This document shows positions 17,171 to 60,044 of a stretch of 64,000 nucleotides of DNA, one piece after another. The stretch lies in the sequence record MW650886.1; one strand, written 5' to 3'. The translations under genes and the position numbers were made by a program. The first letter of the stretch is position 1. Every line of letters starts with the position of its first letter. The notes beneath the pieces were generated by a model. The model ran no database searches. It was not told where the DNA came from and saw only the letters and a list, made by a program, of their open reading frames with translations. The DNA is from Escherichia phage vB_EcoM-ZQ1.

Positions 17171-17220
17171 AATCTAGTCCTAAATAGCTATAACACTCTA
17201 TCTATTTAAGGGCTGAGACC

Positions 17221-18189
17221 ATGGCCGACTTCAAGAAGACAATCGATAAGATCAAGGTTCTGAACACGAAGGGATTGTCCCAGGCTCAGAAGCAATTGTC
17301 TTATCCCCTAGACGTTACTGGGGGTAAGACCTTGGGACACTATGTCCTATTCAACATCAACCGTATCTCCGGTTCATCTTATGGCAACACGGCTACTCAG
17401 ACTATCGAGAACCCAATACAGAACCCTCTGGGGAATACTCCTGTGGTCTATGGGTCCAAGTCTGGTTCCATCACCAAATATGCATGGGCGCGTCACGTTC
17501 GTTCAAACGAGTCTATCGTACTTTGTATGCCTGAGTCCATTACAACCAACTATGGTGTTGGCTGGAACGGTAGCGAGCTGGGGCTGGCTGGTATGGGGGC
17601 ACAGTTCCTTTCCCGCGCCGCCCAAGACATGACTCAGTTTAAACTGGGTGATGCGCTCAACGTCGGGAAGGAGATGGGGCGATTCGCTGCCACCAAGGCT
17701 ATCCAATCTGCGTCGGAGGCTATTCCATTCCTGCCGAGCATTAACGCTCATGACACCCTTGAGTTGTTCACAGGCACCATGACCAACCCATATGTGGAGA
17801 TGATCTTCCAGGGTGTTCGCAACCGTGAGATTCCATTTACATTCAAATTCACGCCGCGATCTCAGAAGGAAGCCAAGATGGTCCGTGAGATCATCCGCAT
17901 GTTCAAGATGCACATGTACCCAGAGTACAAGTACAACAAGAATTCCAGCGCGTTTTACTTGCATCCTTCAACATTCGACATTACGTTCATGGTCAATGGG
18001 GAGCGTAACCAGTGGCTGCACCGCATCTCCACTTGTGTGCTTTCCAACATGTTCGTCAACGAGACGCCGGACAGTTCATACGCGGTTCACAAAGATGATG
18101 GTATCGTGTCCACGCAGGTTGACATGACCTTCATCGAACTGGAGCCTCTGCATAAAGGGCGCTTTGAAACCGAAGGCGATAGCTTCTAA
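17221..18189 (+). CDS. virion structural protein (baseplate/tail-tube-associated, gp48/gp54-like candidate)
   Basis: 322 aa; first gene of a co-directional block ending in a tape-measure-like protein; assignment by position and weak resemblance. Confidence 0.35.
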   Translation: MADFKKTIDKIKVLNTKGLSQAQKQLSYPLDVTGGKTLGHYVLFNINRISGSSYGNTATQTIENPIQNPLGNTPVVYGSKSGSITKYAWARHVRSNESIVLCMPESITTNYGVGWNGSELGLAGMGAQFLSRAAQDMTQFKLGDALNVGKEMGRFAATKAIQSASEAIPFLPSINAHDTLELFTGTMTNPYVEMIFQGVRNREIPFTFKFTPRSQKEAKMVREIIRMFKMHMYPEYKYNKNSSAFYLHPSTFDITFMVNGERNQWLHRISTCVLSNMFVNETPDSSYAVHKDDGIVSTQVDMTFIELEPLHKGRFETEGDSF

Positions 18190-22098: not shown

Positions 22099-22758
22099 TC
22101 AGACTCCGTGGGCTTGTATTAGCTCACGGAGTCTCTGTTTTGAATATGTGGTATCCTCATCCGGAACCACAGCATTCGTCTTCCTGAGCAAGAACGCCTC
22201 TGAGTTCCAGTAGATGTCATCACGCAGAATCGTATCGTATAGATGAATGAAACCAACGATCTTGTTCAGACCGACAAGGAACCAAATCGGGAACTTCTTG
22301 ATGATGATGTCTGTCAGCAACGGTGGATGACCTGTACCCGTCCCCTTGATGTACTCAATGAAGGTGCAGTTGCGCTCCCTTATGGCAGGGATCATCTCCC
22401 GCTCGAACTCCTCAAGGAAGTTATATGTAAAGTTCTCGTACAGCTTACGGTATTCATCATAATTGGCCTGAGCCTGGCGTGTAAGCAATGTCGTCACCCA
22501 GGTCTTGGGTGATTTGATGAAGTTGGCAATGATGTAGTTCTCTACCACTTCACCCTGTGATGACTCGAACCGACGGGCAAGGCGAGCAAACTGTTTGCAC
22601 ACGGCCTCCTTCGCCAAGAACGTCTCGAACTTGTAATTCATCGGTCCATACAAGCTGTAATCGAAGTCCTTAGTGGTGAAGTGCAGCTTGATCGCCATGA
22701 AGACACAGTAAACGTTGAACGCCCGCTCGAACTCCATCTTCTGCCACTCTGTTAGCAT
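22099..22758 (-). CDS. gp59-like helicase loader candidate
   Basis: 219 aa; loose N-terminal resemblance to T4 gp59 from recall, and position in a replication-gene neighbourhood. Confidence 0.4.
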   Translation of the reverse strand: MLTEWQKMEFERAFNVYCVFMAIKLHFTTKDFDYSLYGPMNYKFETFLAKEAVCKQFARLARRFESSQGEVVENYIIANFIKSPKTWVTTLLTRQAQANYDEYRKLYENFTYNFLEEFEREMIPAIRERNCTFIEYIKGTGTGHPPLLTDIIIKKFPIWFLVGLNKIVGFIHLYDTILRDDIYWNSEAFLLRKTNAVVPDEDTTYSKQRLRELIQAHGV

Positions 22759-22994
22759 TTGCGTTCCTCTTCTTTAATAAATTGCAATAACTCTTCCATC
22801 AGCCCTTTCTTCTTGATGAACTGTAACACCAGGATGAAGCGACGGAAGGAGCGGGGGACAACACGATAACCCTTCGCCCAGTAGTTCACAACATTAGAAC
22901 AATCCAATAAACGAGCCAGCCCAGATTGTGACACCCCGAGGCTCAGCAGAACCTTGTACATGTACTTCTTGTCATTTACCGGAAGCTCTTTCAT
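22752..22994 (-). CDS. XRE/Cro-type helix-turn-helix protein
   Basis: LLSLGVSQSGLARLLDCSNVVNYWAKG matches the HTH_XRE pattern; start uncertain (ORF-track start 23006 overlaps the upstream gene). Confidence 0.4.
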   Translation of the reverse strand: MKELPVNDKKYMYKVLLSLGVSQSGLARLLDCSNVVNYWAKGYRVVPRSFRRFILVLQFIKKKGLMEELLQFIKEEERKC

Positions 22995-23229
22995 TCTTAA
23001 ACTCATGATATTTGTCCGCTAATGTCTTATAATATTTGTTAGGATTATACTCCTGTTTGGAATAGTGAAGAGTAAGGGAAGCACTCAGACCTAGGATAAT
23101 CACGACAACGAGCGCCTTGTGGTTATTGATCTCGGGAATAGCTATCCACACCAGCAACAACACAAGCGAGCTGATAATCAAGGACAGCAAGAACGTTAAT
23201 GCAATCACCAATGCGAATAGCTCGTCCAT
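22972..23229 (-). CDS. small membrane protein (two TM helices)
   Basis: FALVIALTFLLSLIISSLVLLLVWIAI and ALVVVIILGLSASLTL hydrophobic helices. Confidence 0.4.
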   Translation of the reverse strand: MDELFALVIALTFLLSLIISSLVLLLVWIAIPEINNHKALVVVIILGLSASLTLHYSKQEYNPNKYYKTLADKYHEFKNERASGK

Positions 23230-23459: not shown

Positions 23460-24890
23460 TCACCCATTACCCTTCTCCAACAGGAATGCGATGTTTTCAA
23501 TGTACGCTTTCTGTATCGCATAGACTTCATCCAGTGTGTTGGCCACTTTCTTGTCAATGCGGACTTCTACAAGGCGAGGTAGGAACAAAGACTTCATCGC
23601 ATCATCTGTCTTATCCTGTACGCCATTGGAGAGCACTGCGGCGATTTTGCCAATGTAGTCGCCCTGGTTCTCCCACATATGGCGTCTCAGCTCATCTGAG
23701 ATCCCTGATACGCCAACAACAAGCAGGCTGTCGGAAGTTTTACAAATCAGTGAGCCAAAAGTCTTGGCGTGTTTGCCTTTCTTGTCGGCCTCGTTGAATC
23801 CCACGATTTCAAGGTCACACTCAACCTCCATCTTCAGCTTCAGACCTTCAGAAGAAGTACCATCTTCCCACGGCATGTCTGCGGCCTTACATATCGTGCC
23901 TTCTTCTTTGCGAGCCAGCGCGTCTTTGAAGTGGTCGACGGCTTCGGCAAATGAGTGAACAACACGAGTTTCTTGAACCTGAACCAGACCGTCGTCTTCA
24001 TCAAACAGTTGCTGGATGATATCGAAGCGGCGCTCATACGGGGTATCCACGCGTTGGGCGTTGAACCATTGTTCATACGGCACAACATCCCACACCCGGT
24101 AGATCACCCGATAACGATCTTCTAGGGGTTCTCCTGTCTGAATCACGCTGTTGAGTTTACCGTTACCGACAGCACGAGGCAGGATGGTATTCGACTTGAG
24201 GTCAACAACGAGAAGTTCACCATGGAACACACTCTCACCAATCCCCGTATCGTAGATCAGGTCTTTGAACACCAGTGAAAGGTTATCAACAGAACCACCT
24301 GCGATAAGGGAACCGGAGCGAGAGCGAATCTCAGGCTCTTTATTGTACCGACATATGATGTTGGCGAACATACCGTCTGACTTCAGCTGGCTGTAGACGC
24401 CACGCTTGAAGTCCATCTTCTTCAGCAGGTCAATTGTCATGTTGTCATAACGATGATACGGAAGAATGTTGATCAGGCGTCCAGTGCCTCCGGCGGCGTT
24501 GAATGCAGCGTTGATACCCTTCTCAGCGATACCCGCCTTGATATCACGGTCTAGGATCATCTGAATGAGTTCGTGGTATTGGGGATCCATCTTCAGGGCG
24601 ACAGAGGCCAACAGGGCATCAGCCTTTTGGCCACTGACAAGGCGCTGTGCCATCTGGTCGAGGACGTCATAGACTTCGCTGATGTCATCAGTCTTCTCAC
24701 GGACGAGCATGCGAGGGTACGCGCTGAGCTTCAACTCAGTCCGATAGAACGACGTCATTGGGTCATAGACATACTGCAGGAAGTCTGCCAAGTCTGGGTT
24801 GTTCTTGAATGCTTCGGTCAGCACGGCTTTCTTCGCATTGCTGCCTTTGGTTTCGCGAAGTCGGTGGACTGTTTCAAGGATAGGGATCAT
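23460..24890 (-). CDS. ATP-dependent DNA ligase (T4 gp30-like)
   Basis: 476 aa; nucleotidyltransferase motif I LKSDGMF (K-x-D-G); size matches T4 DNA ligase. Confidence 0.8.
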   Translation of the reverse strand: MIPILETVHRLRETKGSNAKKAVLTEAFKNNPDLADFLQYVYDPMTSFYRTELKLSAYPRMLVREKTDDISEVYDVLDQMAQRLVSGQKADALLASVALKMDPQYHELIQMILDRDIKAGIAEKGINAAFNAAGGTGRLINILPYHRYDNMTIDLLKKMDFKRGVYSQLKSDGMFANIICRYNKEPEIRSRSGSLIAGGSVDNLSLVFKDLIYDTGIGESVFHGELLVVDLKSNTILPRAVGNGKLNSVIQTGEPLEDRYRVIYRVWDVVPYEQWFNAQRVDTPYERRFDIIQQLFDEDDGLVQVQETRVVHSFAEAVDHFKDALARKEEGTICKAADMPWEDGTSSEGLKLKMEVECDLEIVGFNEADKKGKHAKTFGSLICKTSDSLLVVGVSGISDELRRHMWENQGDYIGKIAAVLSNGVQDKTDDAMKSLFLPRLVEVRIDKKVANTLDEVYAIQKAYIENIAFLLEKGNG

Positions 24891-24902
24891 GTGGTGTCTC
24901 CA

Positions 24903-24935
24903 GGGTTATATGTGCTGCTATTATAACCCTGGGGA
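24903..24935. repeat. 33-bp near-perfect palindrome (ccagggttata-N11-tataaccctgg) upstream of the ligase start
   Basis: 11-bp inverted arms read directly; no adjacent U-tract on either strand. Confidence 0.6.
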
Positions 24936-25004
24936 CTTCAATAGATTATTGGTGGGTGTGGGATCTTGCTTAGCCGATAATGACCGCAAATGTTTCTGTA
25001 TCCA

Positions 25005-25565
25005 TCATGAACCCTCCGCCCAGACAAAGCCGTATTTGTTCAGTAGATCCACGGTTTCACCACGAGCGCGAGCCACGATAGATTCTACTGATTCTTCCAC
25101 CTCGAGTGGTGGGCAACCAGCCTTTTCGTACGTGTTAAGCAAGAGAGCAAGTTCTTTTACGAACTCTTCTTGTTCCTCTCCTCCAAAGAACCACATCCGC
25201 AGATCGTCGCGTTCCCCGTGCTTGTTCAGAGAAGCCATATTCACGTACACGTAATCGTTTTTCTGAACAACGTCATTTATCTCCGGCCAATGCAACCCAG
25301 TCATCGCATAATTGAAGAATTCCGAAGGGGTGACTTCATCCGACAAATAATACAAACGGAAGTCACCGCTGGGGCCATGTTTGCAAGTTCTATCCAGCAT
25401 TATTTTGTGGATGTCAACACGGTCTCGCTTCAAGACTTCCCGTTTCTTCAGTCGACCTCTCAGCCAGGCACTGCCAATACACAAAAGAACGAAAGCAGTA
25501 GCACCAGTGAGTATGTTGAAAGAATCAATAATGTTCATAAGATCCCCGAAGTGATAAAGGGGCAT
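25005..25565 (-). CDS. membrane-anchored protein (N-terminal TM helix, soluble C-terminal domain)
   Basis: GGAGGGG RBS upstream of the ATG at 25565; N-terminal NILTGATAFVLLCIGSAWL is hydrophobic. Confidence 0.45.
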   Translation of the reverse strand: MPLYHFGDLMNIIDSFNILTGATAFVLLCIGSAWLRGRLKKREVLKRDRVDIHKIMLDRTCKHGPSGDFRLYYLSDEVTPSEFFNYAMTGLHWPEINDVVQKNDYVYVNMASLNKHGERDDLRMWFFGGEEQEEFVKELALLLNTYEKAGCPPLEVEESVESIVARARGETVDLLNKYGFVWAEGS

Positions 25566-25579
25566 AAGCCCCTCCGATG

Positions 25580-26188
25580 TTATTTGCTCAGGCTGGCGAG
25601 GTAGTTGTCGGCTTCGATAGACGACGGGCTGTTGGCGGAGTAGCTCGAATCAGCGATTTCGGTTTCGCGCAGGATGGCATCGATATCGATGGTGGTCATA
25701 CCAGCGGCATAATCGATATCTTCAGGGAGCACCAGACCCAGGTCGTTCGTCTCTTTCTGAACACGAACCAGCTCGAGATTGGACTTGACTTCGTCCAGTT
25801 TGTCACCCAGCTGGATGATCGCACCGTTCAGTTTGTCGCTGCTTGCTTCGATGTCCTTCACCTGAGCCAACAGGGCTTCACCGATACGGCGGCGATGCAG
25901 AATAATCAGGGCGTCGGCGCGGGTTGGTGTGACACCACGAGCGATGGCGTCCTTCAGAACTTCTTCGCGCTTGGCGGCTTCACTCAGGTTCTGTTCTGCG
26001 GTCTTCTTCAGTTTGACGCCGTTGCGGACGTTGGTGACACGGGCTTCCTCCAGGCGACGGATTTCGTCAGACAGCTTGCGAGCAGCCAGGTTCAGGCGCT
26101 TTTCGGTGTCGGTCAGTTTATCCAGACCTGCGGTGACGTTGGCTTCAACAGTGGTGAAGATGCGTTTCAGTAAGTTTTTCAGTGACAT
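25580..26188 (-). CDS. PspA/IM30-family (phage-shock protein A / Vipp1-like) protein
   Basis: 202 aa; N-terminal amphipathic helix then long heptad-like coiled coil (LKNLLKRIFTTVEANVTAGLDKLTDTEKRL...) resembling PspA; GAGGA RBS. Confidence 0.55.
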   Translation of the reverse strand: MSLKNLLKRIFTTVEANVTAGLDKLTDTEKRLNLAARKLSDEIRRLEEARVTNVRNGVKLKKTAEQNLSEAAKREEVLKDAIARGVTPTRADALIILHRRRIGEALLAQVKDIEASSDKLNGAIIQLGDKLDEVKSNLELVRVQKETNDLGLVLPEDIDYAAGMTTIDIDAILRETEIADSSYSANSPSSIEADNYLASLSK

Positions 26189-29087: not shown

Positions 29088-29151
29088 GATGTGCTCCTGG
29101 TTTATATTCAGATCATAAAATTATACCCTATGACCCGCTTTATTGAATTAC

Positions 29152-33622: not shown

Positions 33623-34665
33623 ACTACACCTTCCAGGAACTTAGGATCAATGATCTTGCGGTCAACCGGGGAATGGGTGAGCGCGGTGTTCAAGCCATGA
33701 TCCTGAATCAGGTCCAGGTTAATGAGCTTTTCGTTCAGTTTACAGTGCAGACAGTACGCCATCTGTACAATCAGGCCGCGATCCGCATCGTATTCCTTCA
33801 GGTGAGCAACCACAGTTTCCCACGGGCTACCGATATCACAGTGATGAAGCACACCAGTGAACAGATTGCGGATATGGTTCTGGTTGGTCACGTTCGTGAA
33901 GTGAATCATGGAGTTGATGAACCCAGCTTCTACTTTGGTGTCCTTCGTGATCTTTCCCAGCTGCTTCTGGCTGACTTCATTGTTGTAGTAATGAAGATTG
34001 TTAGAGAATAGCTTGTACTGACCGACATCAACATCCAGCACCCGAGCAATCACTTCCTGAAGAATAGAGAACTCAATGAAGTTAATTGAACTCATCCCCC
34101 ACAGAACATCCTGTGAGCGGTTGATGACCGTCAGGTTCAGACGACCTTCAACGATGGCGAACAACAGAGCCAGGTTACACACCATGTCCTTAGTCTTTGC
34201 TTCGCCGCTCTCGCTGAACTTCGCCAGACCAGCATCCGAATCTAGAGCCGGGTCATAGATGGTGAGGTACGCCTGGCGAGTGTTTGGGTTCTTGCGCAGG
34301 CGGTTGATAACGCTATCCAGCTGGCCATGGGCGTACAGACGCGGACCATAAGCAGCTCGCCATGTTACCCCATCATCCGAAAAGTTAGCAGCGCGAGGCA
34401 ATACGCGTGACAGGAACTTTATGTCGTTGCGACCTGACAACACCCAGAAGGTCTCGCCGATGGCAGCGATAGCCGATGAGTTGCGACCTTCAACGGAGAG
34501 CCAGCGGTCACGAATATCGGAAACAGTGATCGTCACACCATCAAGGAAGCGGGTGCTATCAGTATTGATTTCAGCATTACCAGGATCAGATTCGATCCCG
34601 AATTCACGGATAGCCAAGACAGCCTGCTTCAGCATGTCATTGTTGTTAATTGCTTTGATTTCCAT
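33619..34665 (-). CDS. thymidylate synthase / pyrimidine hydroxymethylase family enzyme with about 100-aa C-terminal extension
   Basis: ThyA-fold motifs: ETFWVLSGRND, RKNPNTRQAYLTIYDP, catalytic-Cys region DMVCNLALLF (VCN instead of PCH), NRSQDVLWGMSSINF (R-S-x-D ... N); occupies the T4 gene 42 position. Confidence 0.75.
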   Translation of the reverse strand: MEIKAINNNDMLKQAVLAIREFGIESDPGNAEINTDSTRFLDGVTITVSDIRDRWLSVEGRNSSAIAAIGETFWVLSGRNDIKFLSRVLPRAANFSDDGVTWRAAYGPRLYAHGQLDSVINRLRKNPNTRQAYLTIYDPALDSDAGLAKFSESGEAKTKDMVCNLALLFAIVEGRLNLTVINRSQDVLWGMSSINFIEFSILQEVIARVLDVDVGQYKLFSNNLHYYNNEVSQKQLGKITKDTKVEAGFINSMIHFTNVTNQNHIRNLFTGVLHHCDIGSPWETVVAHLKEYDADRGLIVQMAYCLHCKLNEKLINLDLIQDHGLNTALTHSPVDRKIIDPKFLEGVV

Positions 34666-35336
34666 CAGATACTCCCAAAATCACGACAGAGGAATGCCAT
34701 CACAGCCTGGTCTACTGTTAGGCCGTGAGACTTCATCATACCCGCAGCCACCGTAGGGAACAAGTCTTTATGTCGTTGACGATGGTCATGAACTCTCTCC
34801 CACTTCTCGACCACCAGACTTTCATTGAAGTCCACACCGCCGTTACGTGATTTAACACGAGCGATACACGTTTCAAGAGGAGTGTCCATAAAGAGCACAA
34901 CCAATTCACGTGGTGGGCGTGTCAGACGGGGGATCCAAGAACTCAATAATGTGGATGGAATGATACCTTCGAAAATCACATCATATTTCAAGTATTCTGG
35001 TTGGTCAGCAATAGACAACGCGAACAACATCTGCTCAGTGTCCTTCAGGGAATCAACCCCCTTGGACTTCGACTTGTCATATTTACCGATACAGACCACG
35101 TTGAACGAAGGACAGACAGTCAGCATGACCTTGCCGTTATGGGTCACGACATACGCCTGAGGATCCCTCTCCGCCAGCTGAGACGGCACAGTGGATTTAC
35201 CGCTACCATTGGAGCCTTTGACGTAGTAGATTTGCCCTCGTGCTGGGTAGATCCCCTTTACGACGGGTGGTTTAAAGAATGTGTGGACGGGGCGCTTCAT
35301 CAGCCCCTTCAGGGAGTAGGACATAAACTGCTCCAA
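34665..35336 (-). CDS. P-loop kinase of unassigned specificity
   Basis: Walker A YYVKGSNGSGKST; coupled by 1-nt overlap to the ThyA-family gene. Confidence 0.55.
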   Translation of the reverse strand: MEQFMSYSLKGLMKRPVHTFFKPPVVKGIYPARGQIYYVKGSNGSGKSTVPSQLAERDPQAYVVTHNGKVMLTVCPSFNVVCIGKYDKSKSKGVDSLKDTEQMLFALSIADQPEYLKYDVIFEGIIPSTLLSSWIPRLTRPPRELVVLFMDTPLETCIARVKSRNGGVDFNESLVVEKWERVHDHRQRHKDLFPTVAAGMMKSHGLTVDQAVMAFLCRDFGSI

Positions 35337-35340
35337 TAAA

Positions 35341-35365
35341 CAAAAGGAGCTGCTATTATAGCAGC
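35341..35365 (-). terminator. rho-independent terminator on the minus strand (gctgcta-TAA-tagcagc then TCCTTTT)
   Basis: hairpin read directly, downstream of the stop at 35400. Confidence 0.5.
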
Positions 35366-35399
35366 CCCTTCATCTATTGAACAGTTTCTGAACTTAAAT

Positions 35400-51843: not shown

Positions 51844-52638
51844 TTAACTGAAACTCTTGTATGCTGCTGCGAGCTTCTTGTCGTACTGGTTCTTGGCATA
51901 CGCCGGACCATTATAGCGCCGTGCAAATTCAGACCAGTTCTTGTCCTTCAGAGCCTTCCAGAGCTTGGCGTCAGCCTTGATGAACTTCACGAATGCCATC
52001 AAATGAGCACGTTCTCCTGTCAGGAAGTCGTTGAACATCTCCTTGGCGTTGGCATATCCACAGACCTGGCAGTTGAATCCCATGATCTGGAAGAGACCGT
52101 AAGAGGCGCTCTCGTACGCACAATCCTCATCGATGTTGATGGCCGCATGAAGTCGATCCAACTCCGCGTCGCCTCCCGTGTACCCGCCTGCGGAAGGACT
52201 GACCAACGTCGGGTACATATGTCCCATGGCATTCGCCCGAGCCTGTCCGAACTTCGCCATCAGCTTCTTATACATGATGTGACGCTCAAATAATGTCTTG
52301 ATCTTACCTGACTTGGTGAAGCCCGTGCCGCGCGACTCAACCTGATTCACCGCCTTGACAGAGGCAAGGTCAACACCCAGATCATTAGCAGCATCAATCA
52401 GGTCTGACTCAGTTAAATGATCCTGATGGGCGTCTCCGGCGTTGCGAATAGCATAGGAGGTCTTTGGACCCACGATACCATCAATGACAAGCCCCGCACC
52501 CGCCTGAACAGTCTTGACGGCGTTCTCTGTTGCCTTACCAAAGATGCCGTCAGCGACGAGGGTGAAGCCGATTTTGTTGAGGCTATCCTGAAGTGCCTTC
52601 ACTTCAGTACCACGGTTGCCAAATTTTAGAATGGCCAT
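51844..52638 (-). CDS. endolysin: N-terminal peptidoglycan-binding repeats plus C-terminal muramidase-like domain
   Basis: ATG at 52638 with GGAGG RBS; two PG_binding_1-like repeats (GTEVKALQDSLNKIGF ... FGKATENAVKTVQ); C-terminal catalytic-like domain (YGLFQIMGFN). Confidence 0.65.
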   Translation of the reverse strand: MAILKFGNRGTEVKALQDSLNKIGFTLVADGIFGKATENAVKTVQAGAGLVIDGIVGPKTSYAIRNAGDAHQDHLTESDLIDAANDLGVDLASVKAVNQVESRGTGFTKSGKIKTLFERHIMYKKLMAKFGQARANAMGHMYPTLVSPSAGGYTGGDAELDRLHAAINIDEDCAYESASYGLFQIMGFNCQVCGYANAKEMFNDFLTGERAHLMAFVKFIKADAKLWKALKDKNWSEFARRYNGPAYAKNQYDKKLAAAYKSFS

Positions 52639-52700
52639 AAGAAAATACCTCCACAATGAATGTAGAGGTATTTAAAGTGAAAGTGAACTGACTTTGAGGA

Positions 52701-55367: not shown

Positions 55368-55411
55368 ATTTTGCTCATTGTCCTTTCCTTTCGGTGGATA
55401 ATGAGCAAAAT
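55368..55411. repeat. perfect 12-bp inverted repeat (attttgctcatt / aatgagcaaaat) with 20-nt spacer
   Basis: read directly in the 244-bp intergenic region upstream of the primase gene. Confidence 0.6.
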
Positions 55412-55435
55412 TATATGCCTTTATTTTGTATTGAC

Positions 55436-55874: not shown

Positions 55875-56180
55875 TTAGTCTTTGTCGGCAGACTTGCCAA
55901 AGAAGAATTCGAAACCGTCATGGACAGCAACGACTTCCTGACCTTGGGAGATACCGTGAGTCTGGTCTGGGGTCAGCTTCACCTTGATGGTGTTGCCATC
56001 GGTTAACTCCAGGTTGTAGACATCCGCCTGATTGTCAGGAGTGATCTGGGTCACGGTAGCGCCGGAACACCACTGAGTGCCATCAGCTTGTTTGGTGATG
56101 GATACGGTCTTACCCTGGACACCAGCATGGGTCTGAGGTTTAGCGGCTTGTTCTTTAAAATATTCGATAAACGGTTTCAT
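55875..56180 (-). CDS. late-promoter-driven small protein (virion component candidate)
   Basis: 101 aa; exact TATAAATA about 24 nt upstream, GGAG RBS, own terminator downstream. Confidence 0.45.
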   Translation of the reverse strand: MKPFIEYFKEQAAKPQTHAGVQGKTVSITKQADGTQWCSGATVTQITPDNQADVYNLELTDGNTIKVKLTPDQTHGISQGQEVVAVHDGFEFFFGKSADKD

Positions 56181-56204: not shown

Positions 56205-56212
56205 TATTTATA
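56205..56212 (-). promoter_or_regulatory. T4 late-promoter box TATAAATA (minus strand)
   Basis: exact match on the reverse complement, immediately after the upstream terminator hairpin. Confidence 0.5.
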
Positions 56213-60014: not shown

Positions 60015-60033
60015 AGGGGCGAAAGCCCCTTTT
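60015..60033 (-). terminator. hairpin terminator (aggggc-GAAA-gcccct), GNRA-type loop, T-rich on the plus side
   Basis: read directly, just downstream of the stop at 60045. Confidence 0.5.
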
Positions 60034-60044
60034 ATTGAATTATT

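What the first reader, a model, noticed from the sequence alone, without database searches (positions are those of the whole stretch)
24903..24935. 33-bp palindrome upstream of the DNA ligase start
The 11-bp arms (ccagggttata ... tataaccctgg) form a near-perfect palindrome between the membrane-protein/PspA operon and the ligase gene, with no U-tract on either strand. It looks more like a protein-binding site or an RNA processing hairpin than an intrinsic terminator.
Basis: seen in the sequence. Interest (0 to 1): 0.35.

Follow-up and report, generated by a model that had tools for sequence, protein, structure and literature searches.

The report
Ribosome-site-hiding hairpin with embedded ligase promoter
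The palindrome in front of this phage's DNA ligase gene most likely folds in long read-through RNAs to hide the ligase ribosome-binding site, while a promoter inside it makes short translatable RNAs, a trick known from phage T4.

Summary
The palindrome is real. It has perfect 11-nt arms at 24900-24910 and 24922-24932, 3 nt left of the stated coordinates, and extends to 15-nt arms with one mismatch.

The genes here lie on the minus strand. On the mRNA strand, the 3' arm contains the ligase Shine-Dalgarno GGAG, 7 nt before the ATG. The junction of the 5' arm and the loop holds a perfect TATAAT.

The whole module is kept in 20 further Ackermannviridae genomes from several genera, whatever gene lies upstream. 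The module is an AT-rich box, the 5' arm with TATAAT, a loop of variable sequence but fixed length with an invariant A 7 nt after TATAAT, and the 3' arm with the SD.

Predicted cost to open the SD is 11-18 kcal/mol in read-through RNA and 3-5 kcal/mol in RNA starting at that A.

Among 81 start sites in the window, the five most buried all carry a -10-like hexamer in the 5' arm: endolysin, RuvC-like resolvase, ligase, 5-hmdU DNA kinase and gp48. Endolysin and resolvase are the analogues of T4 genes e and 49.

Best reading: a T4 gene-e-type translational lock with an embedded promoter, here of the sigma-70 -10 type. It is not a terminator. A DNA operator role is not excluded. There are no transcript data.

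The parts
24922..24936 (-). 5' arm of the hairpin on the mRNA strand (GTCCCCAGGGTTATA). It overlaps the promoter spacer and the first four bases of the -10 hexamer.
   Evidence: Kept in all orthologues.
24911..24921 (-). Loop (AUAGCAGCACA in the window). Its sequence varies between genera. The distance between the conserved GGGTTAT and ATAACCC cores is always 13 nt.
24896..24910 (-). 3' arm of the hairpin (UAUAACCCUGGAGAC). It contains the ligase Shine-Dalgarno sequence.
24920..24925 (-). Perfect -10 hexamer TATAAT at the junction of the 5' arm and the loop. It is invariant in all 13 distinct orthologous sequences.
   Evidence: TATAATAG occurs three times in the window, all intergenic.
24913..24913 (-). 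Predicted transcription start: an invariant A (followed by an invariant C) 7 nt after the -10 hexamer, inside the otherwise variable loop. Inferred, not mapped.
   Evidence: alignment columns 38-39 invariant
24936..24950 (-). Conserved AT-rich upstream box AATAATCTATTGAAG (about -37 to -23). It marks the left edge of the conserved module. It contains no sigma-70 -35 match at 16-18 bp.
24898..24901 (-). Shine-Dalgarno GGAG, 7 nt before the ATG. It is base-paired in the stem of the full-length RNA.
24888..24890 (-). Ligase start codon ATG.
23460..24890 (-). ATP-dependent DNA ligase gene (T4 gp30-like, 476 aa), the gene under control.
25005..25565 (-). Upstream membrane-protein gene. Its read-through transcripts would carry the complete hairpin. 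No convincing terminator lies between it and the hairpin.

Best explanation
The palindrome encodes an RNA hairpin that makes ligase translation depend on the ligase gene's own promoter. Transcripts that start upstream, at the PspA/membrane-protein genes or, in other phages, at whatever gene precedes ligase, run through the gap and contain both arms. The 14-15 bp stem (about -19 kcal/mol) then pairs the Shine-Dalgarno GGAG, and ribosomes cannot load. A promoter whose -10 hexamer TATAAT sits in the 5' arm starts transcription in the loop, at the invariant A at 24913. These short transcripts lack the 5' arm, leave the SD open and are translated. Shown here: the hairpin, its conservation, the SD in the 3' arm, the conserved TATAAT and A in the 5' arm and loop, the predicted energy difference, and recurrence of the same design at four other genes. 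Inferred: promoter activity, the start site, upstream read-through and the translational block.
For: - Anatomy on the coding strand is ...CTATTGAAG-GTCCCCAGGGTTATAAT-AGCAGCACA-TATAACCCTGGAGAC-ACCAC-ATG.
- Conservation footprint across 13 distinct sequences from Agtrevirus-, Limestonevirus-, Kuttervirus- and Klebsiella-phage-type genomes: the upstream box, the 5' arm, TATAAT, an 'AC' 7-8 nt later, the 3' arm with the SD, and the ATG are conserved. The rest of the loop and the SD-ATG spacer vary.
- 97.8% of stem cells pair as sense RNA, and pair 21-49 runs A-U, G.U, G-C. Read from the same table, only 87.9% would pair in the antisense RNA and 86.8% as a strict DNA palindrome.
- Complementarity is not a by-product of two separate motifs. 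The TATA of the -10 pairs with a 3' TATA that has no other role, and the SD pairs with promoter-spacer bases that have no other role.
- The module travels with ligase. At least five unrelated upstream contexts are seen, and LHE287/A221-type phages lack the membrane and PspA genes altogether yet keep the module.
- Predicted cost of opening the SD is 11.2-17.8 kcal/mol in read-through RNA against 2.7-5.3 kcal/mol in RNA starting at the invariant A, in all 9 orthologues tested.
- No convincing terminator lies between the upstream genes and the hairpin; the scan's only minus-strand hit is a weak 5-bp stem inside the membrane-protein CDS.
- Of 81 start sites in the window, ligase ranks third for SD burial. 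The top five all have TATAAT or TAAATA 35-44 nt before the ATG in the 5' arm, although only 19 of 81 genes have such a hexamer.
- Those five are endolysin, RuvC-like resolvase, ligase, 5-hmdU DNA kinase and gp48. The kinase, endolysin and resolvase hairpins are conserved in relatives with pair-preserving changes, including a compensatory 1-nt deletion in both resolvase arms.
- T4 genes e (lysozyme), 49 (resolvase), soc and I-TevI use exactly this design (review PMC3014915).
Against: - There are no transcript or translation data for any Ackermannviridae phage in the searched literature.
- No sigma-70 -35 element lies at 16-18 bp, and the consensus promoter scan calls nothing on this strand.
- Covariation support is weak. 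No pair changes on both sides relative to the commonest pair, and 198 of 500 shuffles reach the observed score.
- The window's own clade has a C.A mismatch in the stem. In the window, L001 and L015 the antisense strand folds more stably than the sense strand, so strand specificity is not proven.
- Weak alternative pairings of the SD are still predicted in the short transcript.
- The more distant Ackermannviridae phiEa2809, phiMAM1 and Vibrio phage K414 have no such hairpin, so it is dispensable.
- Ligase is not an obviously harmful or late protein, so the reason for locking it is less clear than for lysozyme or resolvase.
Confidence: 0.6

Rival explanations
1. The palindrome acts on DNA as an operator. 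A dimeric regulator binds the two arms across the -10 and the start site and represses (autoregulates) the ligase-to-gp59 operon. The candidate is the 84-aa protein encoded three genes downstream at 22755-23006(-).
For: - The inverted repeat overlaps the putative -10 and start site, and the arm spacing is strictly constant.
- The 84-aa protein (phrog_4600) has a conserved ...LGVS.SGL..LL.CSNVV..W..GYR.IP... stretch that reads like an XRE-type helix-turn-helix (my reading).
- Its AlphaFold model is all-helical. The six best PDB matches are all small helix-turn-helix DNA binders, five of them Aca1, Aca2 or Aca7.
- A homologue lies downstream of ligase in every hairpin-bearing locus and was not found in the three hairpin-less loci.
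Against: - The fold matches are not significant (E = 1.7 or worse, pLDDT 68), and there is no Pfam hit even at E = 10.
- The co-occurrence is confounded by phylogeny.
- 14-bp arms with a 13-bp spacer (41 bp in all) are atypical for a small HTH dimer.
- The arms differ from each other mostly at positions that remain G.U pairs in the sense RNA.
- Four other genes carry the same hairpin-plus-hexamer-plus-SD layout with unrelated arm sequences. One sequence-specific protein cannot explain all of them.
- The outer half of the stem is the SD itself.
Confidence: 0.15
2. The hairpin is an RNA processing or stability element. It could be an RNase III-type cleavage site that separates the ligase mRNA from upstream mRNA, or a 3'-end protective stem for the upstream transcript.
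For: It is a stable, conserved stem-loop in an intergenic region of a polycistronic unit with no U-tract.
Against: - The stem has 14-15 bp, shorter than the roughly two helical turns typical of E. coli RNase III substrates (established knowledge, not tested here).
- The element stays with ligase while the upstream gene changes, which argues against a 3' element of the upstream mRNA.
- This reading does not explain the conserved TATAAT and invariant A, nor why the SD is always in the stem.
- There is no Rfam match.
Confidence: 0.1
3. The hairpin is a U-tract-less transcription stop or pause signal that insulates ligase from upstream transcription at the RNA polymerase level, with re-initiation at the adjacent promoter.
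For: Other promoter-like TATAAT sites in the window sit inside hairpins that do have U runs: the 5-hmdU kinase at about 35327-35383 and ssb at about 40340-40362. So overlap of terminator and promoter is used in this genome.
Against: There is no U run after the ligase stem on the coding strand. The 11-13 nt loop and AU-rich inner stem do not resemble intrinsic terminators, and the scan does not call it.
Confidence: 0.05

Closest known systems
Phage T4 inhibitory hairpins at the translation initiation regions of genes e, 49, soc and I-TevI (review PMC3014915)
   Same: The SD and/or AUG lie in the 3' strand of a helix, and a promoter lies in the DNA encoding the 5' strand. Long upstream-initiated transcripts are therefore silent and promoter-proximal transcripts are translated. 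In this window the endolysin and the RuvC-like resolvase, analogues of T4 e and 49, show the same layout with an nTAAATA motif.
   Different: The gene is DNA ligase, which is not among the T4 cases listed in that review. The embedded hexamer is TATAAT(AG), a sigma-70-type -10, not the T4 late box TATAAATA. The host family is Ackermannviridae. Nothing has been tested experimentally.
RBS-sequestering hairpin of the homing endonuclease gene mobE of Aeromonas phage Aeh1 (Gibb and Edgell, cited in PMC3014915)
   Same: A hairpin hides the ribosome-binding site of a gene that is transcribed as part of a longer message in a T4-related phage.
   Different: There the target is a mobile endonuclease gene embedded in another gene. 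Here it is a core replication gene with the promoter -10 built into the stem.
Aca-type helix-turn-helix autorepressors and their inverted-repeat operators
   Same: An inverted repeat overlaps the promoter of an operon that also encodes a small HTH-like protein.
   Different: Aca1 was crystallised on a 19-bp palindrome (PDB 7vjm title), whereas this element spans 41 bp with a 13-bp spacer. The fold similarity is not significant, and the arms include the SD.
Intrinsic (rho-independent) terminators
   Same: A stable stem-loop at the end of an upstream gene.
   Different: There is no U-tract, the loop is long and the inner stem is AU-rich. The scan does not call it.
T4 middle promoters (MotA box near -30 plus a sigma-70 -10, no -35)
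   Same: A perfect -10, no -35, and a conserved box (CTATTGAAG) centred near -28 in front of a replication gene.
   Different: ViI-like phages have no MotA or AsiA homologues (PMC3184105). The box was not found at the same spacing elsewhere in the window. This is a resemblance only.

Membership tests
T4 gene-e-type translational lock (inhibitory TIR hairpin with embedded promoter) | The Shine-Dalgarno sequence and/or start codon is sequestered in an RNA helix in the long transcript. | tested here: met
   GGAG (24898-24901) lies in the 3' arm. P(unpaired) is 0.01 or less for three of its four bases, and opening costs 11-18 kcal/mol in 9 orthologues. These are predictions only.
T4 gene-e-type translational lock (inhibitory TIR hairpin with embedded promoter) | [quoted passage not shown] | tested here: met
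   A perfect, invariant TATAAT lies at 24920-24925(-) at the 5' arm/loop junction, with an invariant A 7 nt downstream. This holds at motif level only.
T4 gene-e-type translational lock (inhibitory TIR hairpin with embedded promoter) | Transcripts really start inside the hairpin, and these are the translated ones. | not testable with these tools
   This needs 5'-end mapping and translation assays. The predicted opening cost for the short RNA is 3-5 kcal/mol.
T4 gene-e-type translational lock (inhibitory TIR hairpin with embedded promoter) | Longer transcripts from upstream promoters extend into the gene. | tested here: inconclusive
   There is no terminator-like site between 26600 and 24936 on the minus strand, apart from a weak 5-bp stem inside a CDS. 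There are no RNA data.
T4 gene-e-type translational lock (inhibitory TIR hairpin with embedded promoter) | The embedded promoter is a gp55-type late promoter (TATAAATA). | tested here: not met
   The ligase motif is TATAATAG. TATAAATA occurs only at 38251(+) and 56212(-). The element therefore works like the T4 cases but is not a late-promoter member.
Sigma-70 promoter | -10 hexamer TATAAT. | tested here: met
Sigma-70 promoter | -35 hexamer (TTGACA-like) 16-18 bp upstream. | tested here: not met
   The scan finds none. TTGAAG lies only 10 bp from the -10.
Intrinsic terminator | A G+C-rich stem with a short loop, followed by a U run. | tested here: not met
Operator of an operon-encoded HTH autorepressor (Aca-like) | An inverted repeat overlapping the promoter. 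| tested here: met
Operator of an operon-encoded HTH autorepressor (Aca-like) | A cognate helix-turn-helix protein encoded in the same operon. | tested here: inconclusive
   For the 84-aa protein there is no Pfam hit, AF2 pLDDT is 68, and the best PDB matches are Aca1/Aca2/Aca7 at E = 1.7 or worse. It co-occurs with the hairpin, but within one clade.
RNase III processing site | About two helical turns (roughly 20 bp) of double-stranded RNA. | tested here: not met
   The stem has 14-15 bp. The size criterion comes from established knowledge.
Described RNA families (Rfam 15) | A match to a curated covariance model. | tested here: not met
   No match at E <= 1 in 24700-25200.

The most novel reading that the evidence does not exclude
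The ligase element may be one visible instance of a genome-wide 'promoter inside a start-site hairpin' code in Ackermannviridae. On this reading, TATAAT(AG)-type hexamers in front of replication and DNA-modification genes, and nTAAATA hexamers in front of late, lysis and resolvase genes, are the family's so far unidentified promoter classes. Each gene's translation would be wired to its own promoter, which would let early and late genes be interspersed. The ligase palindrome might in addition serve as operator for the operon's small XRE-like protein.
Probability: 0.3. Interest if true: 0.55.

Novelty: new member of a known kind. Interest (0 to 1): 0.4.

Why it matters
Gene regulation in Ackermannviridae (ViI-like phages, widely used for biocontrol and detection) is essentially uncharted. 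The CBA120 genome paper states that early and middle promoters, and the late promoter sequence, could not be identified (PMC3184105). A 2024 review of the family contains no mention of promoters or transcription (PMC11721090).

The ligase hairpin and its four siblings give concrete, testable positions for promoters and start sites. They also suggest that the T4 strategy of tying translation to the right promoter was kept, or reinvented, in a distant family. In this family it would extend to a replication gene and a DNA-hypermodification gene, not only to harmful late proteins.

On the practical side, it warns annotators and engineers that this intergenic palindrome is not a terminator. Placing ligase or neighbouring genes under foreign promoters may give untranslated mRNA.

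Tried and rejected
- **Repeat family.** Searches for the arm, for GGGTTATAAT and for TTGAAG-N8-12-TATAAT in the window found only this site. A viral-contig scan for GGTTATAAT-N8-12-ATAACCC gave one site per Ackermannviridae genome plus many apparently unrelated contigs, not inspected individually. The element is single-copy.
- **More diversity for covariation.** Only one true orthologue (L168) was found. The first attempt failed for lack of a slot.
- **Existing annotation.** LIMEstone1 annotates terminators in this stretch but places no promoter or terminator before ligase. The AG3 record annotates no promoter or terminator before ligase either, and its ligase start is the same ATG.
- **A -35 element or shared upstream box.** None lies at 16-18 bp. 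TTCAAT-like hexamers occur at variable distances (12-16 bp) before other TATAAT sites and in inverted orientation before ligase. AATTCAATA is enriched, but I could not turn this into a consistent motif.
- **Late promoter reading.** Rejected, because TATAATAG does not contain the TAAATA core found before late genes.
- **Terminator.** Rejected.
- **Known RNA family.** None found.
- **Distant relatives.** phiEa2809, phiMAM1 and Vibrio phage K414 have no hairpin. A GGT(T)AAAATAG string upstream of their ligase genes may be coincidental.
- **HTH candidate.** Pfam, AlphaFold and Foldseek results were inconclusive.
- **Literature.** Four searches found no transcript maps for this family.

Full report
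**Observation.** The inverted repeat exists, 3 nt to the left of the stated coordinates. CCAGGGTTATA lies at 24900-24910 and its reverse complement at 24922-24932, with an 11-nt loop. It extends to 15-nt arms, 24896-24910 and 24922-24936, with one mismatch. No T run follows on either strand, and the terminator scan calls nothing there.

A single perfect 11-nt inverted repeat is not significant in 64 kb. Simulated windows average 0.36, and 22% have at least one. The window, however, has three such loci, the region folds with z = -3.5, and the element is conserved across genera (see Conservation below).

**Context.** The window comes from an Ackermannviridae phage of the Agtrevirus/Limestonevirus type. 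All genes around the site are on the minus strand:
- ATP-dependent DNA ligase, 23460-24890 (phrog_114, PF01068);
- a membrane protein, 25005-25565, upstream of ligase;
- a PspA/IM30-family protein, 25580-26188;
- downstream of ligase, two small membrane proteins, an 84-aa protein and the gp59 helicase loader.

**Anatomy on the coding strand.** The sequence reads 5'-AATAATCTATTGAAG-GTCCCCAGGGTTATA-ATAGCAGCACA-TATAACCCTGGAGAC-ACCAC-ATG.
- The 3' arm contains the ligase Shine-Dalgarno GGAG (24898-24901), 7 nt before the ATG.
- The junction of the 5' arm and the loop contains a perfect TATAAT (24920-24925).
- The hairpin alone is about -19 kcal/mol.

**Conservation.** All 19 Ackermannviridae ligase loci in IMG/VR keep the module, as do one metagenome contig and phage AG3. 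In the alignment of 13 distinct sequences:
- the conserved columns are the upstream box, the 5' arm, TATAAT, an 'AC' 7-8 nt after it, the 3' arm with the SD, and the ATG;
- the rest of the loop and the SD-ATG spacer vary;
- the distance between the conserved stem cores is always 13 nt;
- upstream of the box, homology stops.

At least five unrelated upstream contexts are seen. LHE287/A221-type phages lack the membrane and PspA genes entirely yet keep the module. The element therefore belongs to ligase, not to the upstream operon. Its left edge, about 25 nt before the -10, is where a promoter would begin.

**RNA or DNA?** As sense RNA, 97.8% of stem cells pair, and pair 21-49 runs A-U, G.U, G-C. 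Read from that table, only 87.9% would pair in the antisense RNA and 86.8% as a strict DNA palindrome.

The statistics are weak. No pair changes on both sides, 198 of 500 shuffles do as well, and the events are few. The window's clade also has a C.A mismatch, and its antisense strand folds more stably.

The stronger argument is structural. The TATA of the -10 pairs with a 3' TATA that has no other role, and the SD pairs with promoter-spacer bases that have no other role. The complementarity itself is therefore selected.

**Predicted consequence.** Opening the SD costs 11.2-17.8 kcal/mol in RNA that begins 150 nt upstream. It costs 2.7-5.3 kcal/mol in RNA that begins at the invariant A, in all nine orthologues tested. 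Weak alternative pairings remain in the short RNA.

**Recurrence.** I computed the same opening cost for 81 start sites in the window. The median is 6.9 kcal/mol, and ligase ranks third at 18.7. The five highest all carry TATAAT or TAAATA 35-44 nt before the ATG, in the 5' arm of the hairpin, although only 19 of 81 genes have such a hexamer. Starting the RNA 7 nt after the hexamer drops the cost to 3.6-8.6 kcal/mol.

| Gene | Hexamer in the 5' arm |
|---|---|
| Endolysin (Muramidase + PG_binding_1) | TTTAAATA |
| RuvC-like resolvase | GTAAATAG |
| DNA ligase | TATAATAG |
| 5-hmdU DNA kinase | TGCTATAAT |
| gp48 tail tube cap | CTAAATAG |

The kinase hairpin (about -30 kcal/mol) is conserved in 20 loci. 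The endolysin and resolvase hairpins are conserved with pair-preserving changes, including a compensatory 1-nt deletion in both resolvase arms.

**Comparison with T4.** The T4 review states that genes e (lysozyme), soc, 49 (resolvase) and I-TevI have the SD and/or AUG sequestered in a helix. It adds that late promoters lying in the DNA for the 5' strand give transcripts that lack it and are translated, and that structure lowers lysozyme synthesis about 100-fold (PMC3014915). The endolysin and resolvase of this phage reproduce that layout with a T4-like late core. Exact TATAAATA occurs only twice in the window, both intergenic, one before gp54 and one before a gene of unknown function. Ligase and the kinase reproduce the layout with a sigma-70-type -10.

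**Conclusion.** The ligase palindrome is most likely a translational lock with an embedded promoter (confidence 0.6). It works like the T4 cases but fails the strict membership feature 'late promoter'. It also lacks a -35, so the promoter may need an extended contact or a factor. The conserved CTATTGAAG box near -28 recalls the position of the T4 MotA box, but ViI-like phages have no MotA or AsiA (PMC3184105), and I found no second copy at that spacing.

**Rivals.**
- *Operator for the operon's 84-aa protein.* The protein reads like an XRE-type HTH and co-occurs with the hairpin. The structural evidence is not significant, the 41-bp geometry is unusual, and one protein cannot explain five hairpins with unrelated arms.
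- *RNA processing or stability.* The stem is short for RNase III, and the element follows ligase rather than the upstream gene.
- *U-less terminator or pause.* Nothing supports it beyond the use of terminator-promoter overlaps elsewhere in the genome.
- *Known RNA family.* No Rfam family matches.

**Limits.** There are no transcript data for this phage family in the searched literature. Promoter activity, the start site, read-through and the translational block are all inferred. More distant Ackermannviridae lack the hairpin, so it is a clade-specific refinement.

Noticed in passing
window 52643-52673 (minus strand), upstream of gene 51844-52638: The endolysin gene (N-acetylmuramidase + PG_binding_1) has the most buried start site of 81 genes. 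A 13-bp hairpin has TTTAAATA (one base off the T4 late box) in its 5' arm and GGAGG in its 3' arm. This is the same layout as T4 lysozyme gene e. It is conserved in four related genomes with pair-preserving changes.
   Followed up: partly
window 41993-42037 (minus strand), upstream of gene 41402-41992: A perfect 14-bp hairpin with a 17-nt loop fills the gap before a RuvC-like Holliday junction resolvase gene and abuts its ATG. (G/C)TAAATA lies in the 5' arm. This parallels T4 gene 49. It is conserved in 16 loci, with a compensatory 1-nt deletion in both arms in Limestonevirus and Kuttervirus.
   Followed up: partly
window 35327-35383 (minus strand), upstream of gene 34665-35324: A hairpin of about 27 bp and -32 kcal/mol (z = -7.3) lies before the 5-hmdU DNA kinase gene. 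TGCTATAAT (an extended -10) is at its apex, GGAG is in the 3' arm, and a U-rich run follows the inner stem. It looks like a terminator, a promoter and an SD lock in one element. It is conserved in 20 loci and shares TATAATAGCAGC with the ligase site.
   Followed up: partly
window about 17173-17225 (plus strand), upstream of gene 17221-18189: The gp48-like baseplate tail tube cap gene has an imperfect hairpin covering its SD and AUG, with CTAAATAG in the 5' arm (opening cost 15.4 kcal/mol, fifth of 81).
   Followed up: no
window 38251-38258 (+), 56205-56212 (-), 44364-44371 (+): The T4 late promoter box TATAAATA occurs only twice in 64 kb, both times intergenic: before gp54 and before gene 55875-56180. 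CATAAATA precedes gp5. Together with the nTAAATA motifs above, this suggests the family's late promoter core is TAAATA, which the CBA120 paper listed as unidentified.
   Followed up: partly
window 25005-26188 (minus strand); homology break near 24983: The membrane-protein and PspA/IM30-family genes upstream of ligase are absent from the closest relatives (LHE287, A221, YX22, fGh-Ecl02) and present in P46FS4, SKML-39, AG3 and MK-13. This is an insertion or deletion that ends just upstream of the ligase promoter module.
   Followed up: partly
window 22755-23006 (minus strand): An 84-aa protein (phrog_4600, no Pfam hit) between ligase and gp59 has a conserved XRE-like helix-turn-helix-looking stretch. 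Its AlphaFold model is all-helical, and its best (non-significant) PDB matches are anti-CRISPR-associated repressors Aca1, Aca2 and Aca7.
   Followed up: partly
window about 40340-40362 (minus strand), upstream of the ssb gene 39264-40274: GGGGTATAATTACCCC followed by GCTTTGT is a terminator-like hairpin that carries a perfect TATAAT in its stem and loop. It is another overlap of a stem-loop with a -10 element.
   Followed up: no
window, e.g. 29141-29149(-), 40367-40375(-), 43862-43870(+), 60033-60041(-): The motif AATTCAATA (up to 1 mismatch) occurs 30 times against 15.9 expected (0 of 100 shuffles reach 30). Three of the four exact copies lie just upstream of TATAAT or terminator-like sites, at variable distance. 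An inverted copy (CTATTGAAG) is part of the ligase upstream box. Its meaning is unknown.
   Followed up: partly
window 55369-55379 / 55400-55410 (minus-strand context), next to TATAAT at 55410-55415: This is the third perfect 11-nt inverted repeat in the window. It starts right after an intergenic TATAAT. An SD-like AAGGAAAGGA lies in its loop and an ATG in its 3' arm, possibly the start of an unannotated small gene.
   Followed up: no
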